Shown: positions 27,672-35,021, counted from the stretch's first letter. The stretch is DNA of 64,000 nt from Phenylobacterium sp. (GCF_965229015.1 NZ_CBDDIM010000001.1:622198-686197); one strand, 5' to 3'. Translations and numbers: made by a program. Notes: generated by a model not told the origin, from the letters alone.

Positions 27672-28845
27672 CCAGAATGGCCCGGGCCGCCGCCGCGCCG
27701 GTGGCGAAACAGGCCTGCAGCAGGTAGCCGCCGGTGGGGGCCTCCCAGTCCAGCATCTCTCCGGCCACATAGACGCCCGGCCGGGCCTTCAGCATCAGAT
27801 TCTCGTCCACCGCGTCGAAGCGCACCCCGCCGGCGGTGGAGATGGCCCGCGCCAACCCTTGGGTCCCGGTCAGCCGGATCGGAACCCGCTTGATGGCGGC
27901 GGCCAGGTCGGCGGGCAGGGCGACGCCGTGGGCCTCCCGTAGGAGGCCGATCTCCAGGGGCGAGAGCTTGGCGGCCTTGCGCAGGAAGGTGGCCGTCGAC
28001 TGCCCGCCCCGGGGCCGGTCCAGCCGGGCGGCGAGCTGCTCGCGGGTCAGGCCGGGCCGCAGGTCGATCTCCACGGTCGCCGACCCCGCCTGGGCGATCG
28101 CCGCGCGCAGGTCGGCCGACAGGGCGTAGACCGCGCCGCCCTCGATCCCGTAGGCCGCCACCACCGCCTCGCCGCGCAGGGTGCGCCGGCCGTGGGACAG
28201 GGCGATGGCCTTCAGCGGCTGGCCCGCGAACCGCTCTCGGAACATCGGACTCCAGTCGACGGTGAAGCCGCCATTGGCCGGCTCGAAGGGCGCCAGGGCC
28301 ACCCCCTCCTCGGCCAGGGTCTGGGCCCAGGCGCCGTCCGAGCCGAGCTTGGCCCAACTCGCGCCCCCCAGCGCCAGGATCGTGACGTCGGGCCGCGCGG
28401 TCTCGCCGCCGGCGAACACCAGCTCGCCGGCCGCGTTCCAGCCGCGCCAGTCCATGCGGGTGCGGAAGGTCACCCCCTGGCGGTCCAGTCGCGCCAGCCA
28501 GGCGCGGAGCAGGGGAGAGGCCTTGAGGGTCCTGGGAAACACTCGGCCGCTGGAGCCCACGAAGGTGGGCTGGCCCAGACCTTCGGCCCAGGCCGTCAGG
28601 TCGGCGGGGGTGAAGGCCTCCAGCCGACGGCGAAGATGCTCGGCCGCCGGGCCGTAGCGGCCGACGAAGGCGCGGAAGTCCTCGGAGTGGGTGAGGTTCA
28701 GGCCGCCGCGACCGGCCATCAGGAACTTGCGCCCCAGGCTCGGCATGCGCTCATAGACGGTGACCGTCCGCCCGGCGCCGCTCAGCACCTCGGCGGCCAT
28801 CAGGCCCGCCGGCCCGCCGCCGATCACCGCTATCGTCTCGTTCAT
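27649..28845 (-). CDS. HI0933/BaiN-like flavoprotein (TIGR03862-like)
   Basis: IGGGPAGLMAAE, GRKFLMAGRGGLNLTH, GSSGRVFP and GEMLDWEAPTGGYLLQAC. Confidence 0.9.
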   Translation of the reverse strand: MNETIAVIGGGPAGLMAAEVLSGAGRTVTVYERMPSLGRKFLMAGRGGLNLTHSEDFRAFVGRYGPAAEHLRRRLEAFTPADLTAWAEGLGQPTFVGSSGRVFPRTLKASPLLRAWLARLDRQGVTFRTRMDWRGWNAAGELVFAGGETARPDVTILALGGASWAKLGSDGAWAQTLAEEGVALAPFEPANGGFTVDWSPMFRERFAGQPLKAIALSHGRRTLRGEAVVAAYGIEGGAVYALSADLRAAIAQAGSATVEIDLRPGLTREQLAARLDRPRGGQSTATFLRKAAKLSPLEIGLLREAHGVALPADLAAAIKRVPIRLTGTQGLARAISTAGGVRFDAVDENLMLKARPGVYVAGEMLDWEAPTGGYLLQACFATGAAAARAILARQPGGE

Positions 28846-28943
28846 GGGCCGTCTTTAGCCGAGGCGGCGGCCGGCGTCGTCAATCTGTCGCCTCAGGGAC
28901 GCCGGAGTGTGCGATGGTGGGAGTCCAACTCAGGGGCCTCGAC

Positions 28944-29081
28944 ATGAAACCGCCAGCCAAGGGCCAGCCCCGCATCTATGCGCCGCCGACCCCCAAGGTC
29001 GCCCGGCTGAAACCCGGCAAGGTGCTGACCGCCGCCGAGAAGGCGGCCTTCCTGGCCTCGCGGCCCGACCTCAAGACCTGA
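28944..29081 (+). CDS. Small basic protein, 45 aa (not in ORF track)
   Basis: MKPPAKGQPRIYAPPTPKVARLKPGKVLTAAEKAAFLASRPDLKT; G/C-ending codons; hairpin downstream. Confidence 0.6.
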   Translation: MKPPAKGQPRIYAPPTPKVARLKPGKVLTAAEKAAFLASRPDLKT

Positions 29082-29097
29082 CCCTCGCGCGGCCACA

Positions 29098-29273
29098 GCC
29101 GGAGAGTCCCCGGGGGACATGGAACGGGGACTCTCCGGCCTTGGCGACTGGAGGTTGGGGCTCGTCGCCAATCGGGGAACGAGCCAAGGCCAAGCTTTGT
29201 TCCAATCGAAGATGAACAGGCGGCGCCGGACCCCGTTCAGCGCGGGTTCAAGCCGGGGGCGGCATTGTTCATC
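29098..29273 (-). ncRNA. Multi-hairpin intergenic element, possible sRNA
   Basis: Stems 29098-29112/29125-29139 (15 bp), 29141-29148/29164-29171 and 29211-29218/29266-29273; loops are C-rich on the minus strand. Confidence 0.3.
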
Positions 29274-29364
29274 CCAAGGCCGGACGTCATTTCCCGTCCC
29301 TCAACGCGACGACCGGTCCCCGGCGCGCCAGACCCCCTCCCGGGCTTGGCGCGCCGTTCTGCTT

Positions 29365-30048
29365 TCAGCGGGGCTTGATCTCCAGCGGGCCGGGCATCAC
29401 CGCATTGTAGGTGGGCGCGTGGCCCAGGCGGTGGACGGCGTCGCGGTGGCCCTCCCAGATCATGTGCAGGGCGACGTAGAGCACGATCAGCAGGCCCAGA
29501 TATCCGATCCAGCGGTGGCGGTGCAGCAGGCCGGCGATCCAGTTGGCGGCCACCCCCATCAGGGCGATGGAGAAGATCAGGCCGAAGACCAGCACCATCG
29601 GGTGCTCCCGGGCCGCGCCGGCCACCGCCAGGACGTTGTCCAGGCTCATGGAGAGGTCGGCGGCGAGGATCTGCAGGAAGGCGGCCCGGAAGCTCTTGGC
29701 GGGCTTGACCGGCGCGTGCTCGGCCAGGGCGTCGGCCTGGGCGTGGGTGGCCTGCTCGCGCAGCTCGCGCCACATCTTCCAGCAGACCCAGAGCAGCAGC
29801 AGGCCGCCCCCCAGCATCAGGCCGATGATCCCCAGCAGCTGGGTGGTGATCAGGGCGAAGCCGATCCGCATGACCACGGCGGCGGCCAGGCCCCAGAGGA
29901 TCACCTTGCGGCGTTGTTCGGCCGGCAGGCCCCCGGCCGCCAAGCCCACGGCCACGGCGTTGTCGCCGGCCAGGACCAGGTCGATGAGCATCACCTGCAG
30001 AAAGGCGACGAAGGCCCCCCAGACGCCAACCTCCAGCAGATCACCCAT
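29365..30048 (-). CDS. TerC family membrane protein (YjbE-like)
   Basis: IDLVLAGDNAVAVGLAA and ADLSMSLDNVLAVAG. Confidence 0.92.
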   Translation of the reverse strand: MGDLLEVGVWGAFVAFLQVMLIDLVLAGDNAVAVGLAAGGLPAEQRRKVILWGLAAAVVMRIGFALITTQLLGIIGLMLGGGLLLLWVCWKMWRELREQATHAQADALAEHAPVKPAKSFRAAFLQILAADLSMSLDNVLAVAGAAREHPMVLVFGLIFSIALMGVAANWIAGLLHRHRWIGYLGLLIVLYVALHMIWEGHRDAVHRLGHAPTYNAVMPGPLEIKPR

Positions 30049-30050
30049 GG

Positions 30051-30803
30051 CTAGCGCTTCTTCTGCGCGGCGTGGGCCGCGACCTCGTCGGGAGTGATGT
30101 CCAGGGCGCCGGGCATGGCGGCGTTATAGGCCTCCACCTTGCCCAGATCGATCAGGACGCTGCGGTGGCCCTCCCAGATCATGTGCAGGGCGACATAGAG
30201 GACGATGGCCAGGCCCAGATAGCCCAGCCAGCGGAAGCGGTGCAGCAGCTTGGCGATCCAGCTGGCCGCCACCCCCATCAAGGTGATGGAGATCATCAGG
30301 CCGGCGATCAGCACCTTGGGGTGTTCGCGCGCCGCCCCGGCGACGGCCAGGACATTGTCCAGGCTCATGGTCAGGTCGGCGATGAGGATCTGCAGCAGGG
30401 CCGCGCCCAGGGTCTTGGCCTTGGCGGCATGCTTGGGATGGGCGCCGATGGCGACCCCGGTGGCCTCTTCCAGGGCGAACTCGCCCTCGGCCGAGGCCTC
30501 GCGGCCTTGCTCGGCCAGCTCGTGCCACATCTTCCAGCAGACCCAGAGCAGCAGGAAGCCGCCGGCCAGCAGCAGGCCCACCACGTTCAGCAGCTGGACG
30601 GTGATCAGGGCGAACCCGATCAGCATCACCACCGCGCCGGCCAGACCCAGGATGATGGCCTTGCGGCGCTGCTTTTCCGGCAGGCCGGCGGCCGACAGGC
30701 CCACGGCGACGGCGTTGTCGCCGGCCAGCGCCAGATCGATCATCACGACTTGGAAGAAGGCGGCGACCGCGCCGGCGGCGGGCAAGTGCAGAGCAAGGGA
30801 CAT
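30051..30803 (-). CDS. TerC family membrane protein (YjbE-like), paralog
   Basis: IDLALAGDNAVAVGLSA and ADLTMSLDNVLAVAG. Confidence 0.92.
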   Translation of the reverse strand: MSLALHLPAAGAVAAFFQVVMIDLALAGDNAVAVGLSAAGLPEKQRRKAIILGLAGAVVMLIGFALITVQLLNVVGLLLAGGFLLLWVCWKMWHELAEQGREASAEGEFALEEATGVAIGAHPKHAAKAKTLGAALLQILIADLTMSLDNVLAVAGAAREHPKVLIAGLMISITLMGVAASWIAKLLHRFRWLGYLGLAIVLYVALHMIWEGHRSVLIDLGKVEAYNAAMPGALDITPDEVAAHAAQKKR

Positions 30804-30876
30804 GGTCCCTCAATGCGGCGCCGCGCCTGACAGGGCAAGCCGCATCCCTCCCTACGCGGGGGAGGGATTTTACGGT

Positions 30877-32550
30877 CTAGTGCGCGTGTTCGGGCTCTTT
30901 GTGGTGGGCGTCATGGCCATGGTCGTCGTGCGCGGCGTGACCATGGTCGTCATGGGCCGCATGGCCGTGATCATCATGCGCCGCCGCATGGCCATGGTCG
31001 TCATGGGCGGCATGGGCGTCGCCGTGACCATGGTCGTCATGGGCCGCATGGCCATGATCGTCGTGCGCGGCGGCGTGGCCGTGATCGTCATGCGCCGCGT
31101 GGGCGTCGTGGCCATGGTCGCCGTGGGTGTCGCCATGCCCCTCGTCATGATGGTGCGAGGCGATGGCCCCGGCCACCGCGGCGCCGGCCGCGGCCGCCGC
31201 CAGGGGCGCGGCCAGGCCGCCATGATGCTCTTCCGGCTCGACGTGGGAGGTCCCGGTGTCGGTCATGGTGCGGAACTTGCGGCGACGCTCGGCGCGGCGA
31301 CGGTTCTCCGAGGCGCCGCGGGCCAGCGCGATCAGCAGGGCCAGAGCCGCCAGAACCAGGGCGCCGGCGACGACCTTGTTGGAGGGCACGCGGCCGACGC
31401 CGGGCACGGCGACGTCCTTCATCCCCGGGATGGTCAGCTTGCTGAGCAGGCCGGAGAGGTCGAAGCCCTTCTTCTTGGCGGGGGCCTCCGGCATCAGCGC
31501 GGCCAGGGCCTGTTCGATGCTGGCCAGGGAGAAGCTCATCGGCGGCTTGATCCCGGTGAGGCGGGCGTCGACGTCGGCCTTCAGGGGGCCACGCTCCCCG
31601 GCGCCCGGCTTGACCTGCCAGTTGAAGGCGGCGGCTTCGCCGGTCTTCAGCTTGGCGGTCTGCGGACCGTTGGGGGTGATTTCGTAGCCGGTTCCCGAGA
31701 GGGTGGCGGTGACCTCGGCCTTCTTGGCGGCCTTGGTCAGGCCGAGCTTGGCCGCCTCGCGCTGGATCGTCGCCAGCAGGGTCTGGGGCAGGGACAGGGA
31801 CACCTGGCCGGCCTGGCCCTTGGTGACGGCCTCGGGAACGGTGAGCTTGGAGCCGGAGGCCACCTCGCCGCCGACGGCGGTCTGCAGCTTGGCGAGCTTG
31901 GGATCGGCGGGGACCGCCAGGCCGGTGGCCGGGAAGCTGGGCTGGGGCGCCTTGGCCAGGACGGGGACGGGCTTCGGCGCGGGCGCCGGCTTGGCCTGCT
32001 CCACGACCTTGGGCGCGGCGGCGACCACGGGCTTGGCGGCGATGACGGGCTTGGCGACGGGCGCGGGCCGGGCGGCCGCGACCGCCGGCTTGGCGGCGAC
32101 CGCCGGGCGCGGCTTGGCCGGGGCGTAATAGGCCTGGGCGACCTCCGCATGGCGGGCGCGGGTTCCGGAGCTCACATGGGCCCGGGGCGCGTAGCGGCCG
32201 CCATAGACCAGGCGGCGCTCGCGGGCCGACATGTCCTCGGGGTTGGGCACCGGCCGCATGGCCGTGACCAGGACGCCGTCGGCGCGGCGGTAGGTGACCA
32301 GGCGGTCGGCGTAGCGCGAAGCCGGCCGCGAGGCCGGGGCGATCTGCCGAGCGCCGCCGGGTCCGCCCATCAGGCCGGTGTCATCGGCGGCGCCGGGCGC
32401 GGCGCCCATCAGCTCGGGCGGCGGGGCCTGGGTGTAGGCGTCCGGGGGAGGGGCGACCTCGTGGGAGGTGGGGCCGCTGCAGCCAGCGACGGTTAACAGC
32501 ACGGTCGCGGCTGCGCCGCGCAACATCCACTTGGTCAACATATTCGCCAT
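30877..32550 (-). CDS. Predicted lipoprotein with Pro/Ala/Lys linker, beta-rich domain, TM helix and His/Asp repeat tail
   Basis: Lipobox VAG-C; TM segment VVAGALVLAALALLIALARGA; seven copies of HDDHGH at the C-terminus. Confidence 0.8.
   Translation of the reverse strand: MANMLTKWMLRGAAATVLLTVAGCSGPTSHEVAPPPDAYTQAPPPELMGAAPGAADDTGLMGGPGGARQIAPASRPASRYADRLVTYRRADGVLVTAMRPVPNPEDMSARERRLVYGGRYAPRAHVSSGTRARHAEVAQAYYAPAKPRPAVAAKPAVAAARPAPVAKPVIAAKPVVAAAPKVVEQAKPAPAPKPVPVLAKAPQPSFPATGLAVPADPKLAKLQTAVGGEVASGSKLTVPEAVTKGQAGQVSLSLPQTLLATIQREAAKLGLTKAAKKAEVTATLSGTGYEITPNGPQTAKLKTGEAAAFNWQVKPGAGERGPLKADVDARLTGIKPPMSFSLASIEQALAALMPEAPAKKKGFDLSGLLSKLTIPGMKDVAVPGVGRVPSNKVVAGALVLAALALLIALARGASENRRRAERRRKFRTMTDTGTSHVEPEEHHGGLAAPLAAAAAGAAVAGAIASHHHDEGHGDTHGDHGHDAHAAHDDHGHAAAHDDHGHAAHDDHGHGDAHAAHDDHGHAAAHDDHGHAAHDDHGHAAHDDHGHDAHHKEPEHAH
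30880..31155 (-). repeat. Coding tandem repeats (HDDHGH x7)
   Basis: 24-36 bp degenerate in-frame units within the lipoprotein ORF. Confidence 0.85.
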
Positions 32551-32676
32551 TGGGGCCCCCATCCCATGTCGAGATCCGAGCCGCACACTGGCCCTAAACC
32601 TTAACAGTCACGCAACAGATCACGCTCTGGGCCGGAAATCAAAAGGGGGAATCGCGTGGCGGGTATTCAATTCCCC

Positions 32677-33474
32677 TCAAGCGCGAGTGCGGGAAGCCTC
32701 GTAAAGCGCCACCGCGGCGGCGGCCGAGACATTCAGGCTCTCGAAACCGCCCGGCATGGGGATCTTTCCGAGGGCGTCGCAGTGTTCGGCCACCAGCCGG
32801 CGGATGCCTTCGCCCTCCGATCCCAGCACCAGGACGGTGGGGGTTCCGTCCAGCGCCTGCTCCAGGGACTGGTCGGCGGTCCCGTCCAGGCCCACGGCCC
32901 GCCAGCCGAGGTCGGCCAGGGTCTCCAGGGCCCGCGACAGGTTCACCACGTGGGCGGTGGGGATCTGGTCCACGGCGCCGGCGGCGGCCTTGGCGAGCGC
33001 CCCGGTCAGCTTCGGCGCGTGGCGGTCCTGCAGGATGACTCCCGCCGCCCCGAAGGCTGCGGCCGAGCGCAGGATGGCGCCGACGTTCTGCGGGTCGGTG
33101 ACCTGGTCGAGCATCAGCACCACCGCGCCCGGCCTGGCCTCGAATTCCTCCAGGGCCACCGGCTCCAGCAGGGCGACCTGCAGGGCCAGGCCCTGGTGGA
33201 CCGCGCCGCTGGGCAGGTTGTGGCTGATGACGCCGGGCTCGACGATCTCCAGCGCCGGGTTGCGTCCGAATCGCGCCGTGAGCTCCTTGGCGCGGTCGGC
33301 GGTGGCCAGCAGGCGGTCGGCCGGTTCGCGGGCTGGATTGGCCAGGGCGGCGCTCACGGCGTGCCAACCCCAGAGCCAGTCGTCGGAAACCGCGTCCCGC
33401 CGTCCGGAATGCCTTCCGTGGGGCCCCTTCTTAGAACCCTTCCAGGGCGCGTTGCGTTCGCTGTGTGACGACAC
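32677..33474 (-). CDS. rlmB: 23S rRNA 2'-O-methyltransferase (TrmH/SpoU family)
   Basis: HQGLAL, DQVTDPQNVGAILRSA, LGSEGEG and ESLNVS. Start uncertain (GTG 33474 or TTG 33486). Confidence 0.9.
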   Translation of the reverse strand: MSSHSERNAPWKGSKKGPHGRHSGRRDAVSDDWLWGWHAVSAALANPAREPADRLLATADRAKELTARFGRNPALEIVEPGVISHNLPSGAVHQGLALQVALLEPVALEEFEARPGAVVLMLDQVTDPQNVGAILRSAAAFGAAGVILQDRHAPKLTGALAKAAAGAVDQIPTAHVVNLSRALETLADLGWRAVGLDGTADQSLEQALDGTPTVLVLGSEGEGIRRLVAEHCDALGKIPMPGGFESLNVSAAAAVALYEASRTRA

Positions 33475-33597
33475 TATAAGGCGCACTCCAAATCGGGAAC
33501 CGGACAGATTTCCCGCCGCTCGCGACCGGCTTTAGCACCGGACGCACCGATCGGCGGAGGCTTTTTGTTCGGACCTCGGTGTGGCTCCGAGCGCGCT

Positions 33598-33683
33598 GGG
33601 GGAATGTCCCGAGTGGCAAAGGGGGGGGACTGTAAATCCCCTGGCGTACGCCTTCGTAGGTTCGAGTCCTACTTCCCCCACCA
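33598..33683 (+). tRNA. tRNA-Tyr(GTA)
   Basis: GGGGGAA/TTCCCCC acceptor stem, CTGTAAA anticodon loop, long variable arm, CCA. Confidence 0.96.
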
Positions 33684-33732
33684 CGCGCCGGAGCGAAACT
33701 CTATGGAGGCTCGCACACGAGCACCCACCTCG

Positions 33733-33806
33733 GCGGGTATAGCACAATGGTAGTGCAGCAGCCTTCCAAGCTGAATACGCGGGTTCGATTCCCGCTACCC
33801 GCTCCA
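33733..33806 (+). tRNA. tRNA-Gly(TCC)
   Basis: GCGGGTA/TACCCGC acceptor stem, CTTCCAA anticodon loop, CCA. Confidence 0.96.
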
Positions 33807-33830
33807 TCTCTCAAACGCCCGTAGGATCCC

Positions 33831-35021
<1,191 letters not shown>

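What the first reader, a model, noticed from the sequence alone, without database searches (positions are those of the whole stretch)
29365..32550. Doubly anchored lipoprotein with a His/Asp repeat tail upstream of two TerC genes: candidate metal-handling system
Seen: a 557-aa protein with a lipobox (VAG-C), a long Pro/Ala/Lys spacer, a beta-rich domain (FNWQVKPG) and a late TM helix followed by RRRAERRRK. It ends in about 90 residues with seven HDDHGH copies. It is co-directional with and directly upstream of the TerC pair. Knowledge: His/Asp-rich tails bind Ni, Zn, Co or Cu and serve as buffers or chaperone segments. Inference: the topology puts the tail in the cytoplasm and the body across the periplasm, so it could store or hand metal to TerC exporters while tethering membranes. 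I recognise no described system with this architecture.
Basis: partly seen in the sequence, partly recalled or inferred. Interest (0 to 1): 0.75.

Follow-up and report, generated by a model that had tools for sequence, protein, structure and literature searches.

The report
StpX stalk-protein ortholog beside TerC genes
The "undescribed" doubly anchored His-tailed lipoprotein is the Phenylobacterium counterpart of StpX, a known envelope-spanning stalk protein of Caulobacter; the two TerC genes next to it are long-standing neighbours that very probably have their own promoter, so there is no evidence for one coupled metal machine.

Summary

The architecture is already described. The protein is a full-length, syntenic ortholog of Caulobacter crescentus StpX (CCNA_01296). 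The NCBIfam StpX model gives E 1.5e-100 at 338 bits, below the 450-bit equivalog cut-off. Close Phenylobacterium relatives are already named "stalk-specific protein X".

The order rlmB, stpX-like gene, terC holds in most sampled genera of the family. The His tail and the TerC adjacency occur independently of each other.

A conserved TTGNNN-N17-CATTGA-N6/7-ATG element sits directly before terC in 23 of 28 loci. In C. crescentus the mapped TSS of the terC homolog is the first base of its start codon, and RNA-seq coverage rises from 5.7 to 267 there. These are separate transcription units.

Best reading: an envelope tether with a metal-binding cytoplasmic tail, next to independently transcribed, leaderless YjbE-type TerC exporters. 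Interest is modest.

The parts
30877..32550 (-). stpX ortholog CDS (557 aa plus stop). Alternative in-frame starts at 32562 (ATG) and 32586 (GTG).
   Evidence: Translation. NCBIfam NF051869 StalkProtStpX: E 1.5e-100, 338 bits, residues 13-524 aligned to model positions 13-498 of 516. Relatives named stalk-specific protein X. Synteny with CCNA_01296.
32479..32550 (-). Signal peptide with lipobox VAGC (Cys24; lipobox codons at 32479-32490).
   Evidence: Sequence. An L-[AS]-[GA]-C-type lipobox was found in 29 of the 32 relatives whose N-terminus is on the fetched DNA, including the C. crescentus-like L016.
32182..32313 (-). Small conserved N-terminal module (residues about 80-123: RRADGVLVTAMRPVPNPEDM...ERRLVYGGRYAPR).
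   Evidence: Nearly invariant columns R88, G92, P100, N103, P104, R119-R123. AF2 gives a beta-hairpin plus helix at pLDDT about 75. The same motif is seen in distant relatives.
31906..32178 (-). Pro/Ala/Lys-rich spacer (residues about 125-215), predicted disordered or extended.
   Evidence: Sequence. pLDDT below 50. Tandem-repeat DNA.
31507..31905 (-). Conserved periplasmic core domain (residues about 216-348): beta-sandwich with helices, contains FNWQVKPG.
   Evidence: pLDDT 91-97. Invariant columns include L236, L254, G286, G288, Y289, P293, W311, P315. The domain is conserved across genera. Only 347 representatives among 1.84 billion proteins. No specific PDB match.
31270..31374 (-). Single TM helix (residues 393-410) plus polybasic juxtamembrane stretch RGASENRRRAERRRKFR (411-427).
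   Evidence: Kyte-Doolittle peak of 2.5. AF2 predicts one continuous helix over 390-428. R422, R424, K425 and R427 are invariant.
31156..31218 (-). Conserved Ala/Gly-rich, mildly hydrophobic segment (residues about 445-465: GLAAPLAAAAAGAAVAGAIA) that precedes the His tail.
   Evidence: Kyte-Doolittle 1.6-1.9. P449 invariant; A452-A454 and G456 nearly invariant. Its role is unknown.
30880..31155 (-). His/Asp-rich tail (residues 466-557) with seven HDDHGH units, ending in the conserved motif HHKEPEHAH.
   Evidence: Composition and unit count. Tandem DNA repeats. Tail length and repeats vary among relatives while the terminal (K/R)EPEHA(H) motif is kept from Phenylobacterium to Caulobacter.
30844..30868 (-). 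Hairpin 8 nt after the stpX stop (9-10 bp stem, 5-7 nt loop, no U-tract). Probable terminator or 3'-end stabiliser.
   Evidence: Fold. Conserved in 7 close relatives, with 2 compensatory pairs and a freely varying loop. The pattern scan found no canonical terminator.
30801..30838 (-). terC promoter-like element: TTGCCC (30833-30838), N17, CATTGA (30810-30815), GGGACC, ATG (30801-30803). It predicts a leaderless terC1 mRNA.
   Evidence: The same TTGNNN-N17-CAnnnn-N5-7-ATG geometry occurs in 23 of 28 loci with an adjacent TerC, and the second hexamer is CATTGA in 15 of them. The full motif is unique in the 4.7-Mb genome, against 0.085 expected. In C. crescentus the primary TSS at 1419994 is the first base of the CCNA_01295 start codon, and it is listed with an RpoD motif.
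30051..30803 (-). terC1 (250 aa), YjbE-type TerC family membrane protein.
   Evidence: Pfam PF03741 at E 1.1e-42; TIGR03717 at 201.5 bits against a cut-off of 134.8.
29365..30048 (-). terC2 (227 aa), a tandem paralog 66% identical to terC1, starting 2 nt after the terC1 stop.
   Evidence: Pfam PF03741 at E 1.6e-44; TIGR03717 at 208 bits. Paralogy.
32677..33486 (-). rlmB-type SpoU rRNA methyltransferase, the conserved upstream neighbour of stpX.
   Evidence: Pfam SpoU_methylase at E 1.8e-38. Upstream of the stpX-like gene wherever the fetched flank reaches that far (31 of 40 loci), and in C. crescentus as CCNA_01297.

Best explanation
The 557-aa protein is the ortholog of Caulobacter StpX in a Phenylobacterium-like member of the Caulobacteraceae.

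Proposed working:
- It is exported by Sec and lipidated at Cys24 (inferred from a conserved lipobox).
- It stays fixed in the inner membrane by its single C-terminal TM helix, so it is anchored at both ends.
- About 90 residues of Pro/Ala/Lys-rich spacer could let the lipidated N-terminus and the small PNPED module reach the wall or outer membrane (inferred from an estimated extended length of about 27 nm, my own figure).
- The family-defining beta-sandwich domain sits next to the inner membrane.
- The polybasic stretch and the disordered His/Asp tail lie in the cytoplasm. There the tail most likely binds divalent transition metals as a buffer or sensor. This is inferred from composition; metal binding was not tested.

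In C. crescentus the protein is immobilised in the stalk through PbpC, modulates stalk length, and (from my recollection of Hughes et al. 2013) affects copper and zinc responses.

The two downstream YjbE-type TerC genes are probable metal (Mn-type) exporters. They come from a clade-specific tandem duplication. They are most likely transcribed from their own RpoD-type promoter as a leaderless mRNA, after a hairpin that ends the stpX transcript. The neighbourhood is therefore old synteny, not a demonstrated functional unit.
For: Orthology:
- NF051869 aligns almost end to end, E 1.5e-100.
- Relatives at 78% identity are named stalk-specific protein X, and Caulobacter sp. K31 StpX is 39% identical over 98% of the query.
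- The gene order tuf, tRNAs, rlmB, stpX, terC matches C. crescentus CCNA_01298/97/96/95.

Architecture:
- Lipobox found in 29 of the 32 relatives whose N-terminus is on the fetched DNA.
- A single TM followed by an invariant RxRKxR stretch.
- A confident beta-sandwich core.
- Literature: bitopic protein with a periplasmic N-domain needed for stalk localisation, and PbpC-dependent tethering to the outer membrane (PMC5607218, PMC4460556, PMC5590869).

Tail: 31 of 88 residues are His, with seven HDDHGH units. Caulobacter and Phenylobacterium relatives carry similar tails and a conserved terminal EPEHAH.

Independent terC transcription:
- The promoter-like element is conserved in 23 of 28 loci and is unique in this genome.
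- The C. crescentus TSS coincides with the start codon, and RNA-seq rises from 5.7 to 267 there. stpX has its own two TSSs, one of them cell-cycle regulated.
- The hairpin is conserved with compensatory changes.
- No riboswitch was found.
Against: - The protein scores 338 bits, below NCBIfam's 450-bit equivalog cut-off. So do the other four Phenylobacterium-group relatives tested (325-361 bits), while two Caulobacter proteins pass at 553 and 957.
- Whether this organism makes stalks is unknown. To my knowledge most Phenylobacterium species are not stalked. "Stalk-specific" may therefore not describe the protein's role here.
- Lipidation, outer-membrane reach and metal binding are all inferences.
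- The hairpin has no U-tract and the pattern scan called no terminator, so some read-through into terC is possible.
- The C. crescentus TSS shows only modest +TAP/-TAP enrichment (48 versus 27).
Confidence: 0.75

Rival explanations
1. StpX and the TerC proteins form one metal-handling system, in which the cytoplasmic His/Asp tail stores metal and hands it to the adjacent TerC exporters, and the genes are co-expressed.
For: - Adjacency of the stpX-like gene and terC is kept in most sampled genera, while the gene beyond terC differs between Phenylobacterium and Caulobacter.
- TerC proteins move or deliver Mn to exported proteins (PMC10550928, PMC12096827).
- StpX was reported to affect Cu/Zn responses (my recollection of Hughes et al. 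2013; the paper is not held).
Against: - They are separate transcription units in C. crescentus: terC has its own leaderless TSS and RNA-seq is 5.7 before it against 267 after it.
- terC has its own conserved promoter-like element here, and a conserved hairpin follows the stpX stop.
- All four combinations of tail and adjacency exist. At least 12 tail-less loci keep an adjacent TerC. The His-tailed genus g5 has TerC on other contigs. Genera g12, g14 and g15 have neither the tail nor the adjacency.
- The TerC pair is a recent duplication, and the first copy has decayed in four relatives.
Confidence: 0.12
2. The Ala/Gly-rich segment (residues 445-465) is a second membrane-spanning helix. The His/Asp tail would then lie in the periplasm and buffer or sense periplasmic Cu or Zn.
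For: - The segment is mildly hydrophobic (Kyte-Doolittle 1.6-1.9 over 19 residues) and strongly conserved: P449 invariant, A452-A454 and G456 nearly invariant. In the sequences examined it precedes every His tail of the Phenylobacterium/Caulobacter type; the g5 His tails lack it.
- Stalks contain little cytoplasm, so a periplasmic metal sponge would be attractive (my own knowledge).
Against: - C-terminal GFP fusions of C. crescentus StpX are fluorescent and are widely used as stalk markers. This argues for a cytoplasmic C-terminus (PMC5590869, PMC7083601). That Sec-exported GFP does not fluoresce is my own knowledge.
- AF2 predicts no helix in this segment (pLDDT below 50).
- The hydrophobicity is well below that of the true TM segment (2.5).
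Confidence: 0.08
3. The tail is functionally neutral low-complexity sequence made by repeat slippage, and the protein is purely a structural envelope tether.
For: - The tail is encoded by imperfect tandem DNA repeats.
- Its length and unit order vary even among relatives above 70% identity.
- Many genera lack it altogether.
Against: - His/Asp-rich composition is maintained across Phenylobacterium and Caulobacter despite sequence turnover.
- The extreme C-terminal (K/R)EPEHA(H) motif and the preceding Ala/Gly-rich segment are conserved, which points to selection.
Confidence: 0.05

Closest known systems
StpX, stalk-specific protein X of Caulobacter crescentus (CCNA_01296 / CC_1238; Hughes et al. 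2010 PNAS and 2013 Mol Microbiol; NCBIfam NF051869)
   Same: - Collinear full-length match.
- Lipobox-type signal peptide, PNPED module, Pro/Ala-rich spacer, beta-sandwich core, single TM, RRRKFRT motif, Ala/Gly-rich segment, and His/Asp tail ending in EPEHAH/ELEHAHH.
- The same neighbours: rlmB upstream and a TerC gene downstream.
   Different: - About 40% identity to Caulobacter proteins, and a score below the equivalog cut-off (338 versus 450 bits).
- A shorter and more regular tail, with seven HDDHGH units.
- Two TerC genes downstream instead of one.
- The host genus is not known to me as typically stalked. Stalk localisation and PbpC dependence are untested.
TerC family, YjbE subfamily (TIGR03717); characterised relatives are B. 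subtilis MeeF/MeeY and E. coli Alx
   Same: Both downstream ORFs pass the Pfam TerC and TIGR03717 cut-offs. The family works in Mn export and in metalation of exported proteins (PMC10550928, PMC12096827).
   Different: There is no yybP-ykoY Mn riboswitch, although this subfamily's NCBIfam model is named 'R_switched_YjbE' after riboswitch control. Instead there is a conserved promoter 6 nt from the ATG, which predicts a leaderless mRNA. The substrate here is unknown.
His-rich metal-binding tails of metallochaperones and transporters (for example HypB, UreE, SlyD, loops of CDF/ZIP proteins). Named from my own knowledge.
   Same: A disordered His/Asp-rich stretch of the kind that binds Ni, Zn, Co or Cu.
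   Different: The resemblance is in composition only and no homology was detected. Here the tail is attached to a bitopic envelope lipoprotein and ends in a conserved EPEHAH motif.

Membership tests
StpX (NCBIfam NF051869, equivalog) | HMM score at or above the curated cut-off of 450 bits. | tested here: not met
   338 bits, E 1.5e-100. Four other Phenylobacterium-group relatives score 325-361. Two Caulobacter proteins score 553 and 957.
StpX (NCBIfam NF051869, equivalog) | Collinear, near full-length alignment to the model. | tested here: met
   Residues 13-524 align to model positions 13-498 of 516, in one stretch.
StpX | Bitopic topology: exported N-terminal periplasmic part, one TM helix, cytoplasmic C-terminal tail. 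| tested here: met
   Signal peptide with lipobox, one strong hydrophobic segment at 393-410, and positive charges after it. This is a sequence-level prediction only.
StpX | Positional orthology with C. crescentus stpX (rlmB upstream, CC_1237 TerC homolog downstream, near tuf). | tested here: met
StpX | Stalk-specific, PbpC-dependent localisation and an effect on stalk length. | not testable with these tools
   This needs microscopy and genetics. The genome does encode one bactofilin, which is not diagnostic.
TerC / YjbE subfamily (PF03741, TIGR03717) | Scores above the curated cut-offs. | tested here: met
   PF03741: 146.3 and 152.2 bits against 27.8. TIGR03717: 201.5 and 208 bits against 134.8.
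TerC / YjbE subfamily | Control by a yybP-ykoY Mn riboswitch. This is typical of the subfamily but not obligatory. | tested here: not met
   The Rfam scan of 28500-34000 at E up to 1 found only two tRNAs and one weak chance match (Plastid-ycf2, 29 bits against a gathering score of 66) overlapping one of them.
   Tested by proxy only. The C. crescentus TSS lies at the terC start codon, with RNA-seq 5.7 before it and 267 after it. The promoter-like element is conserved here, and so is the hairpin. No RNA data for this genome could be examined.
   The linkage is widespread, but the two features are uncoupled and all four combinations occur.

The most novel reading that the evidence does not exclude
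StpX-like proteins are an ancestral, family-wide trans-envelope lipoprotein tether of the Caulobacteraceae and not a Caulobacter-only stalk protein. Their persistent adjacency to a leaderless TerC gene reflects a real partnership despite separate promoters. For example, TerC could metalate or load the exported StpX ectodomain or the envelope compartment it organises, with the His tail acting as the cytoplasmic metal reservoir in the clades that have one.
Probability: 0.1. Interest if true: 0.6.

Novelty: new member of a known kind. Interest (0 to 1): 0.3.

Why it matters
The finding corrects a claim of novelty, because the architecture belongs to StpX, a protein used routinely as a stalk marker whose biochemical role is still unclear.

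Three by-products may help people who work on it.
- A divergent, syntenic StpX-like gene with a lipobox, a beta-sandwich and a TM helix gave a match in 16 of 27 sampled genera of the family (counted with the full-length query; some of the weakest matches may be low-complexity). One paper states that StpX is confined to Caulobacter (PMC5590869).
- The conserved lipobox gives a simple physical basis for the reported outer-membrane tethering.
- The neighbouring TerC gene has a strikingly conserved leaderless promoter and no Mn riboswitch.

None of this changes how metal homeostasis is understood unless a StpX-TerC interaction is shown.

Tried and rejected
- Pfam gave no hit for the protein at E up to 0.1.
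- A PDB sequence-profile search gave nothing meaningful; the best hit was E 0.056 to a ribosomal protein tail.
- Foldseek of the AF2 model against PDB gave no hit at E up to 1e-3. The top matches were generic Ig-like, MG or transglutaminase beta-sandwiches with low TM-scores, so no function can be drawn from the fold.
- Rfam found no riboswitch or other cis-RNA in the gap or before stpX.
- The promoter/terminator pattern scan found no sigma-70 consensus promoter and no terminator in 29000-33700. The terC promoter-like element emerged only from comparing loci.
- The two primary StpX papers (Hughes 2010, 2013) are not held. The Cu/Zn statement therefore rests on my memory of the 2013 abstract, and searches for a citing sentence failed.
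- Searching by locus tag gave only irrelevant papers.
- I tried to name the genera of the divergent relatives through a protein search, but all hits were unnamed "hypothetical protein".
- An order-level search with the core-domain profile found only two weak matches outside the family. That search is limited by its heuristic first look.
- Earlier notes of this scan contain nothing on this protein.
Full report
**Observation**

The minus-strand ORF at 30877-32550 encodes 557 aa. Its layout is as follows.
- Signal peptide MANMLTKWMLRGAAATVLLTVAG-C, with lipobox VAGC and Cys24.
- A Pro-rich stretch, then a conserved small module at residues 80-123 (RRADGVLVTAMRPVPNPEDM...ERRLVYGGRYAPR).
- A Pro/Ala/Lys-rich spacer at about residues 125-215.
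- A core domain at about residues 216-348 that contains FNWQVKPG.
- One strongly hydrophobic segment at 393-410 (Kyte-Doolittle 2.5), followed by RGASENRRRAERRRKFR.
- A mildly hydrophobic Ala/Gly-rich segment at 445-465.
- A His/Asp tail. From E470 its 88 residues hold 31 His, 19 Asp, 20 Ala and 12 Gly, with exactly seven HDDHGH units. The tail DNA is an imperfect tandem repeat.

Downstream and co-directional lie two ORFs, at 30051-30803 and 29365-30048.
- Both are clear TerC proteins of the YjbE subfamily.
- They are 66% identical to each other and 2 nt apart.
- The gap from stpX to terC1 is 73 nt and holds a 9-bp hairpin at 30844-30868.

The long plus-strand ORF at 30250-32496 has no homology support and is best read as a shadow frame in 70%-GC DNA.

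**Identity**

The protein has no Pfam hit. It matches NCBIfam NF051869, "stalk-specific protein StpX", almost end to end: E 1.5e-100, 338 bits, residues 13-524 on model positions 13-498 of 516.

The 5.8-billion-protein search returns 282 relatives.
- Proteins at 69-78% identity from Phenylobacterium are named stalk-specific protein X by NCBI.
- About 40%-identical proteins from Caulobacter include UniRef "Stalk-specific protein X" of strain K31.

The score lies below NCBI's 450-bit equivalog cut-off. Four other Phenylobacterium-group relatives score 325-361 bits, while two Caulobacter proteins score 553 and 957. Formally the equivalog test is not met.

Architecture and position nevertheless argue for orthology. 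In C. crescentus NA1000, stpX is CCNA_01296 (CC_1238). It is flanked upstream by the 23S rRNA Gm2251 methyltransferase CCNA_01297 and by tuf, and downstream by CCNA_01295 (CC_1237), an "integral membrane protein" (supplement of PMC4117421). The window has the same order: tuf (33831-35021, +), two tRNAs, a SpoU/RlmB methylase (32677-33486), stpX, then terC.

**What is known about StpX**

The papers I could read say the following.
- It is an abundant inner-membrane protein confined to the stalk. Its exact role is unknown (PMC5590869).
- It is bitopic, regulates stalk length, and needs its periplasmic N-terminal domain for localisation (PMC5607218).
- PbpC is required to localise it and appears to be involved in tethering it to the outer membrane or to an outer-membrane protein (PMC4460556).
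- stpX is induced on severe phosphate starvation (bioRxiv 10.1101/2023.10.07.561339).
- C-terminal GFP fusions are fluorescent, which supports a cytoplasmic C-terminus.

From memory, the abstract of Hughes et al. 2013 (Mol Microbiol 90:1162, co-authored by the Giedroc metallobiology group, as the reference list shows) states that stalk-localised StpX functions in cellular responses to copper and zinc. That paper is not held, so I could not verify the statement.

**Family anatomy**

Sixty-seven relatives align with a conserved pattern.
- Consensus lipobox LAGC.
- The PNPED module.
- Invariant core residues, including L236, L254, G286, G288, Y289, P293, W311 and P315.
- Invariant R422, R424, K425 and R427 after the TM helix.
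- Invariant P449, in the Ala/Gly-rich segment.

AlphaFold2 on this alignment:
- The core is a confident beta-sandwich with flanking helices (pLDDT 91-97 over residues 210-345).
- The PNPED module has moderate confidence (about 75).
- One long helix runs through the TM segment and the polybasic stretch (390-428).
- The spacer and the tail are disordered.

Neither a PDB sequence-profile search nor Foldseek against PDB gives a specific relative. Foldseek's best E is 2e-3, to generic Ig-like or MG-type sandwiches.

A full HMM scan of 1.84 billion representative proteins with the core-domain profile finds only 347 proteins, 161 of them at E up to 1e-30. This is a small, lineage-restricted family.

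**Distribution and linkage**

In 121 genomes of the same GTDB family, 58 genomes in 16 of 27 genera gave a match. That tally used the full-length query at E up to 1e-3, so some of the weakest matches may come from the low-complexity spacer. The syntenic architecture was checked only for the fetched loci.

Where the flanks allow a look, the matching gene lies directly after rlmB. In 29 of the 32 relatives whose N-terminus is on the fetched DNA, a lipobox was found, and the core domain and a TM helix are present even when the rest has diverged. [quoted passage not shown]

TerC follows the gene in 28 of the 40 loci that carry it. These span Phenylobacterium, Caulobacter-like and several other genera.

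The His tail and the TerC adjacency are uncoupled.
- Tail and adjacent TerC: the Phenylobacterium group and genus g27, which includes the C. crescentus-like L016.
- Adjacent TerC but no His-rich tail: at least 12 loci (L019, L022, L024-L029, L032, L033, L036, L037).
- His-rich tail (HEHEHE or HDHDHDHG) but TerC on another contig: genus g5.
- Neither: genera g12, g14 and g15. Where both genes are on one contig, TerC lies 43 kb or more away.

Two TerC copies occur only in the Phenylobacterium clade. In four relatives (L003, L006, L007, L008) the first copy has decayed to fragments.

**Transcription**

Aligning the gaps exposed a conserved bipartite element directly before terC: TTGNNN-N17-CAnnnn-N5-7-ATG.
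- It is present in frame in 23 of 28 loci. The second hexamer is CATTGA in 15 of them.
- No conserved Shine-Dalgarno sequence follows it.
- In the window it reads TTGCCC (30833-30838), N17, CATTGA (30810-30815), GGGACC, ATG (30801-30803).
- The full motif occurs once in the 4.74-Mb genome, against 0.085 expected.

This geometry predicts a transcript that starts at or next to the A of the ATG. The published base-resolution TSS map of C. crescentus (PMC4287350, Datasets S1 and S4) agrees.
- It lists a primary TSS at 1419994 (-). That is exactly the first base of CCNA_01295, which spans 1419254-1419994.
- The TSS is listed with an RpoD-type motif beginning TTGCAT at -35.
- Mean RNA-seq coverage is 5.7 in the 38 bp before the TSS and 267 after it.
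- stpX has its own two TSSs, at 1422126 and 1422101. The first is cell-cycle regulated and is listed with CtrA, DnaA and CcrM motifs. The terC TSS is not cell-cycle regulated.

In the model organism the two genes are therefore separate transcription units, and the terC mRNA is leaderless. One caveat is that +TAP/-TAP enrichment at that TSS is modest (48 versus 27).

The hairpin after the stpX stop is conserved in seven close relatives, with two compensatory base-pair changes and a freely varying loop. More distant relatives carry other GC-rich hairpins at the same place, and two of those are followed by T-runs (L017, L018). It lacks a U-tract and was not called by the pattern scan. I read it as a probable terminator or 3'-end protector, with moderate confidence.

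No riboswitch is present.

**Mechanism**

Shown:
- Identity, architecture, conservation and synteny.
- A separate terC promoter, by comparison and by published data in a relative.

Inferred:
- Lipidation at Cys24.
- An extended spacer of about 90 residues, roughly 27 nm if extended (my estimate), that could let the N-terminal part reach the wall or outer membrane. This fits the reported PbpC-dependent outer-membrane tethering.
- A cytoplasmic His/Asp tail that binds divalent metals as a buffer or sensor.
- TerC proteins acting as independent Mn-type exporters or metalation factors, as described for MeeF and MeeY (PMC10550928, PMC12096827).

**Rivals**

- A functional StpX-TerC partnership. Its only support is conserved adjacency.
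- A periplasmic tail, with the Ala/Gly-rich segment as a second TM helix. The fluorescent C-terminal GFP fusions argue against it.
- A neutral slippage-generated tail. The conserved terminal EPEHAH motif and the maintained composition argue against it.

**Verdict**

This is a new member, in another genus, of a known protein kind (StpX), next to ordinary YjbE-type TerC genes. Interest is 0.3.

Noticed in passing
window 30801-30838 (-); loci L001-L037: The element before terC (TTGNNN-N17-CATTGA-N6/7-ATG) is far more conserved across genera than a typical promoter, and the full motif is unique in this genome. The near-invariant CATTGA could also serve as a regulator site. No Mn riboswitch is present, although the YjbE subfamily's NCBIfam model is named for riboswitch control.
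   Followed up: partly
L003:3052-3374, L006:3331-3686, L007:1548-1942, L008:3231-3800: In four Phenylobacterium relatives the first of the two TerC copies has decayed to fragments, while its promoter-like element and the second copy remain. The TerC pair is therefore a recent and dispensable duplication.
   Followed up: partly
L029 and L032 (same GTDB genus as the window): Between rlmB and terC these genomes carry a 402-404-aa variant. It keeps the lipobox N-terminus, the TM helix, the RRRR stretch, the Ala/Gly-rich segment and a terminal EPEHEPA. It appears to have an Ala/Asp/Gln-rich stretch in place of the beta-sandwich core.
   Followed up: no
L011 (Phenylobacterium sp. Root700), C-terminus of a 179-aa open frame; also P0066 and P0063: The small module RRADG...M(R)P(V/I)PNPEDM...ERRR(V/I)YG also occurs at the end of an unrelated short ORF, and it is duplicated inside some StpX relatives. 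It behaves as an independent unit of unknown function.
   Followed up: no
genome contig C1:250565-250705 and C1:1030488-1030634 (outside the window): Two other His-rich coding stretches exist in the same genome (for example DHDHGHSHDHPHPHGHDDHHHGHHGHHGHHGH). They are probably other metal-handling proteins.
   Followed up: no
L001, L003-L006 and L008 (contig ends lie near the matches): Several public assemblies of relatives have a contig end about 1.4-1.7 kb upstream of the gene, and L005's contig ends inside the His-repeat region. Database copies of this gene may therefore be truncated or collapsed.
   Followed up: no
window 32550-32586 (-): The in-frame translation upstream of the chosen start (HGMGAPMA here, MGSGDPM in Caulobacter) looks conserved. 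This may reflect a G-rich ribosome-binding region, or a start codon 4 codons further upstream (ATG at 32562).
   Followed up: partly
window 28846-29364: A 520-bp stretch with no convincing ORF separates terC2 from the HI0933-like flavoprotein gene. Relatives have 1.5-1.8 kb there (L001, L002, L004).
   Followed up: no
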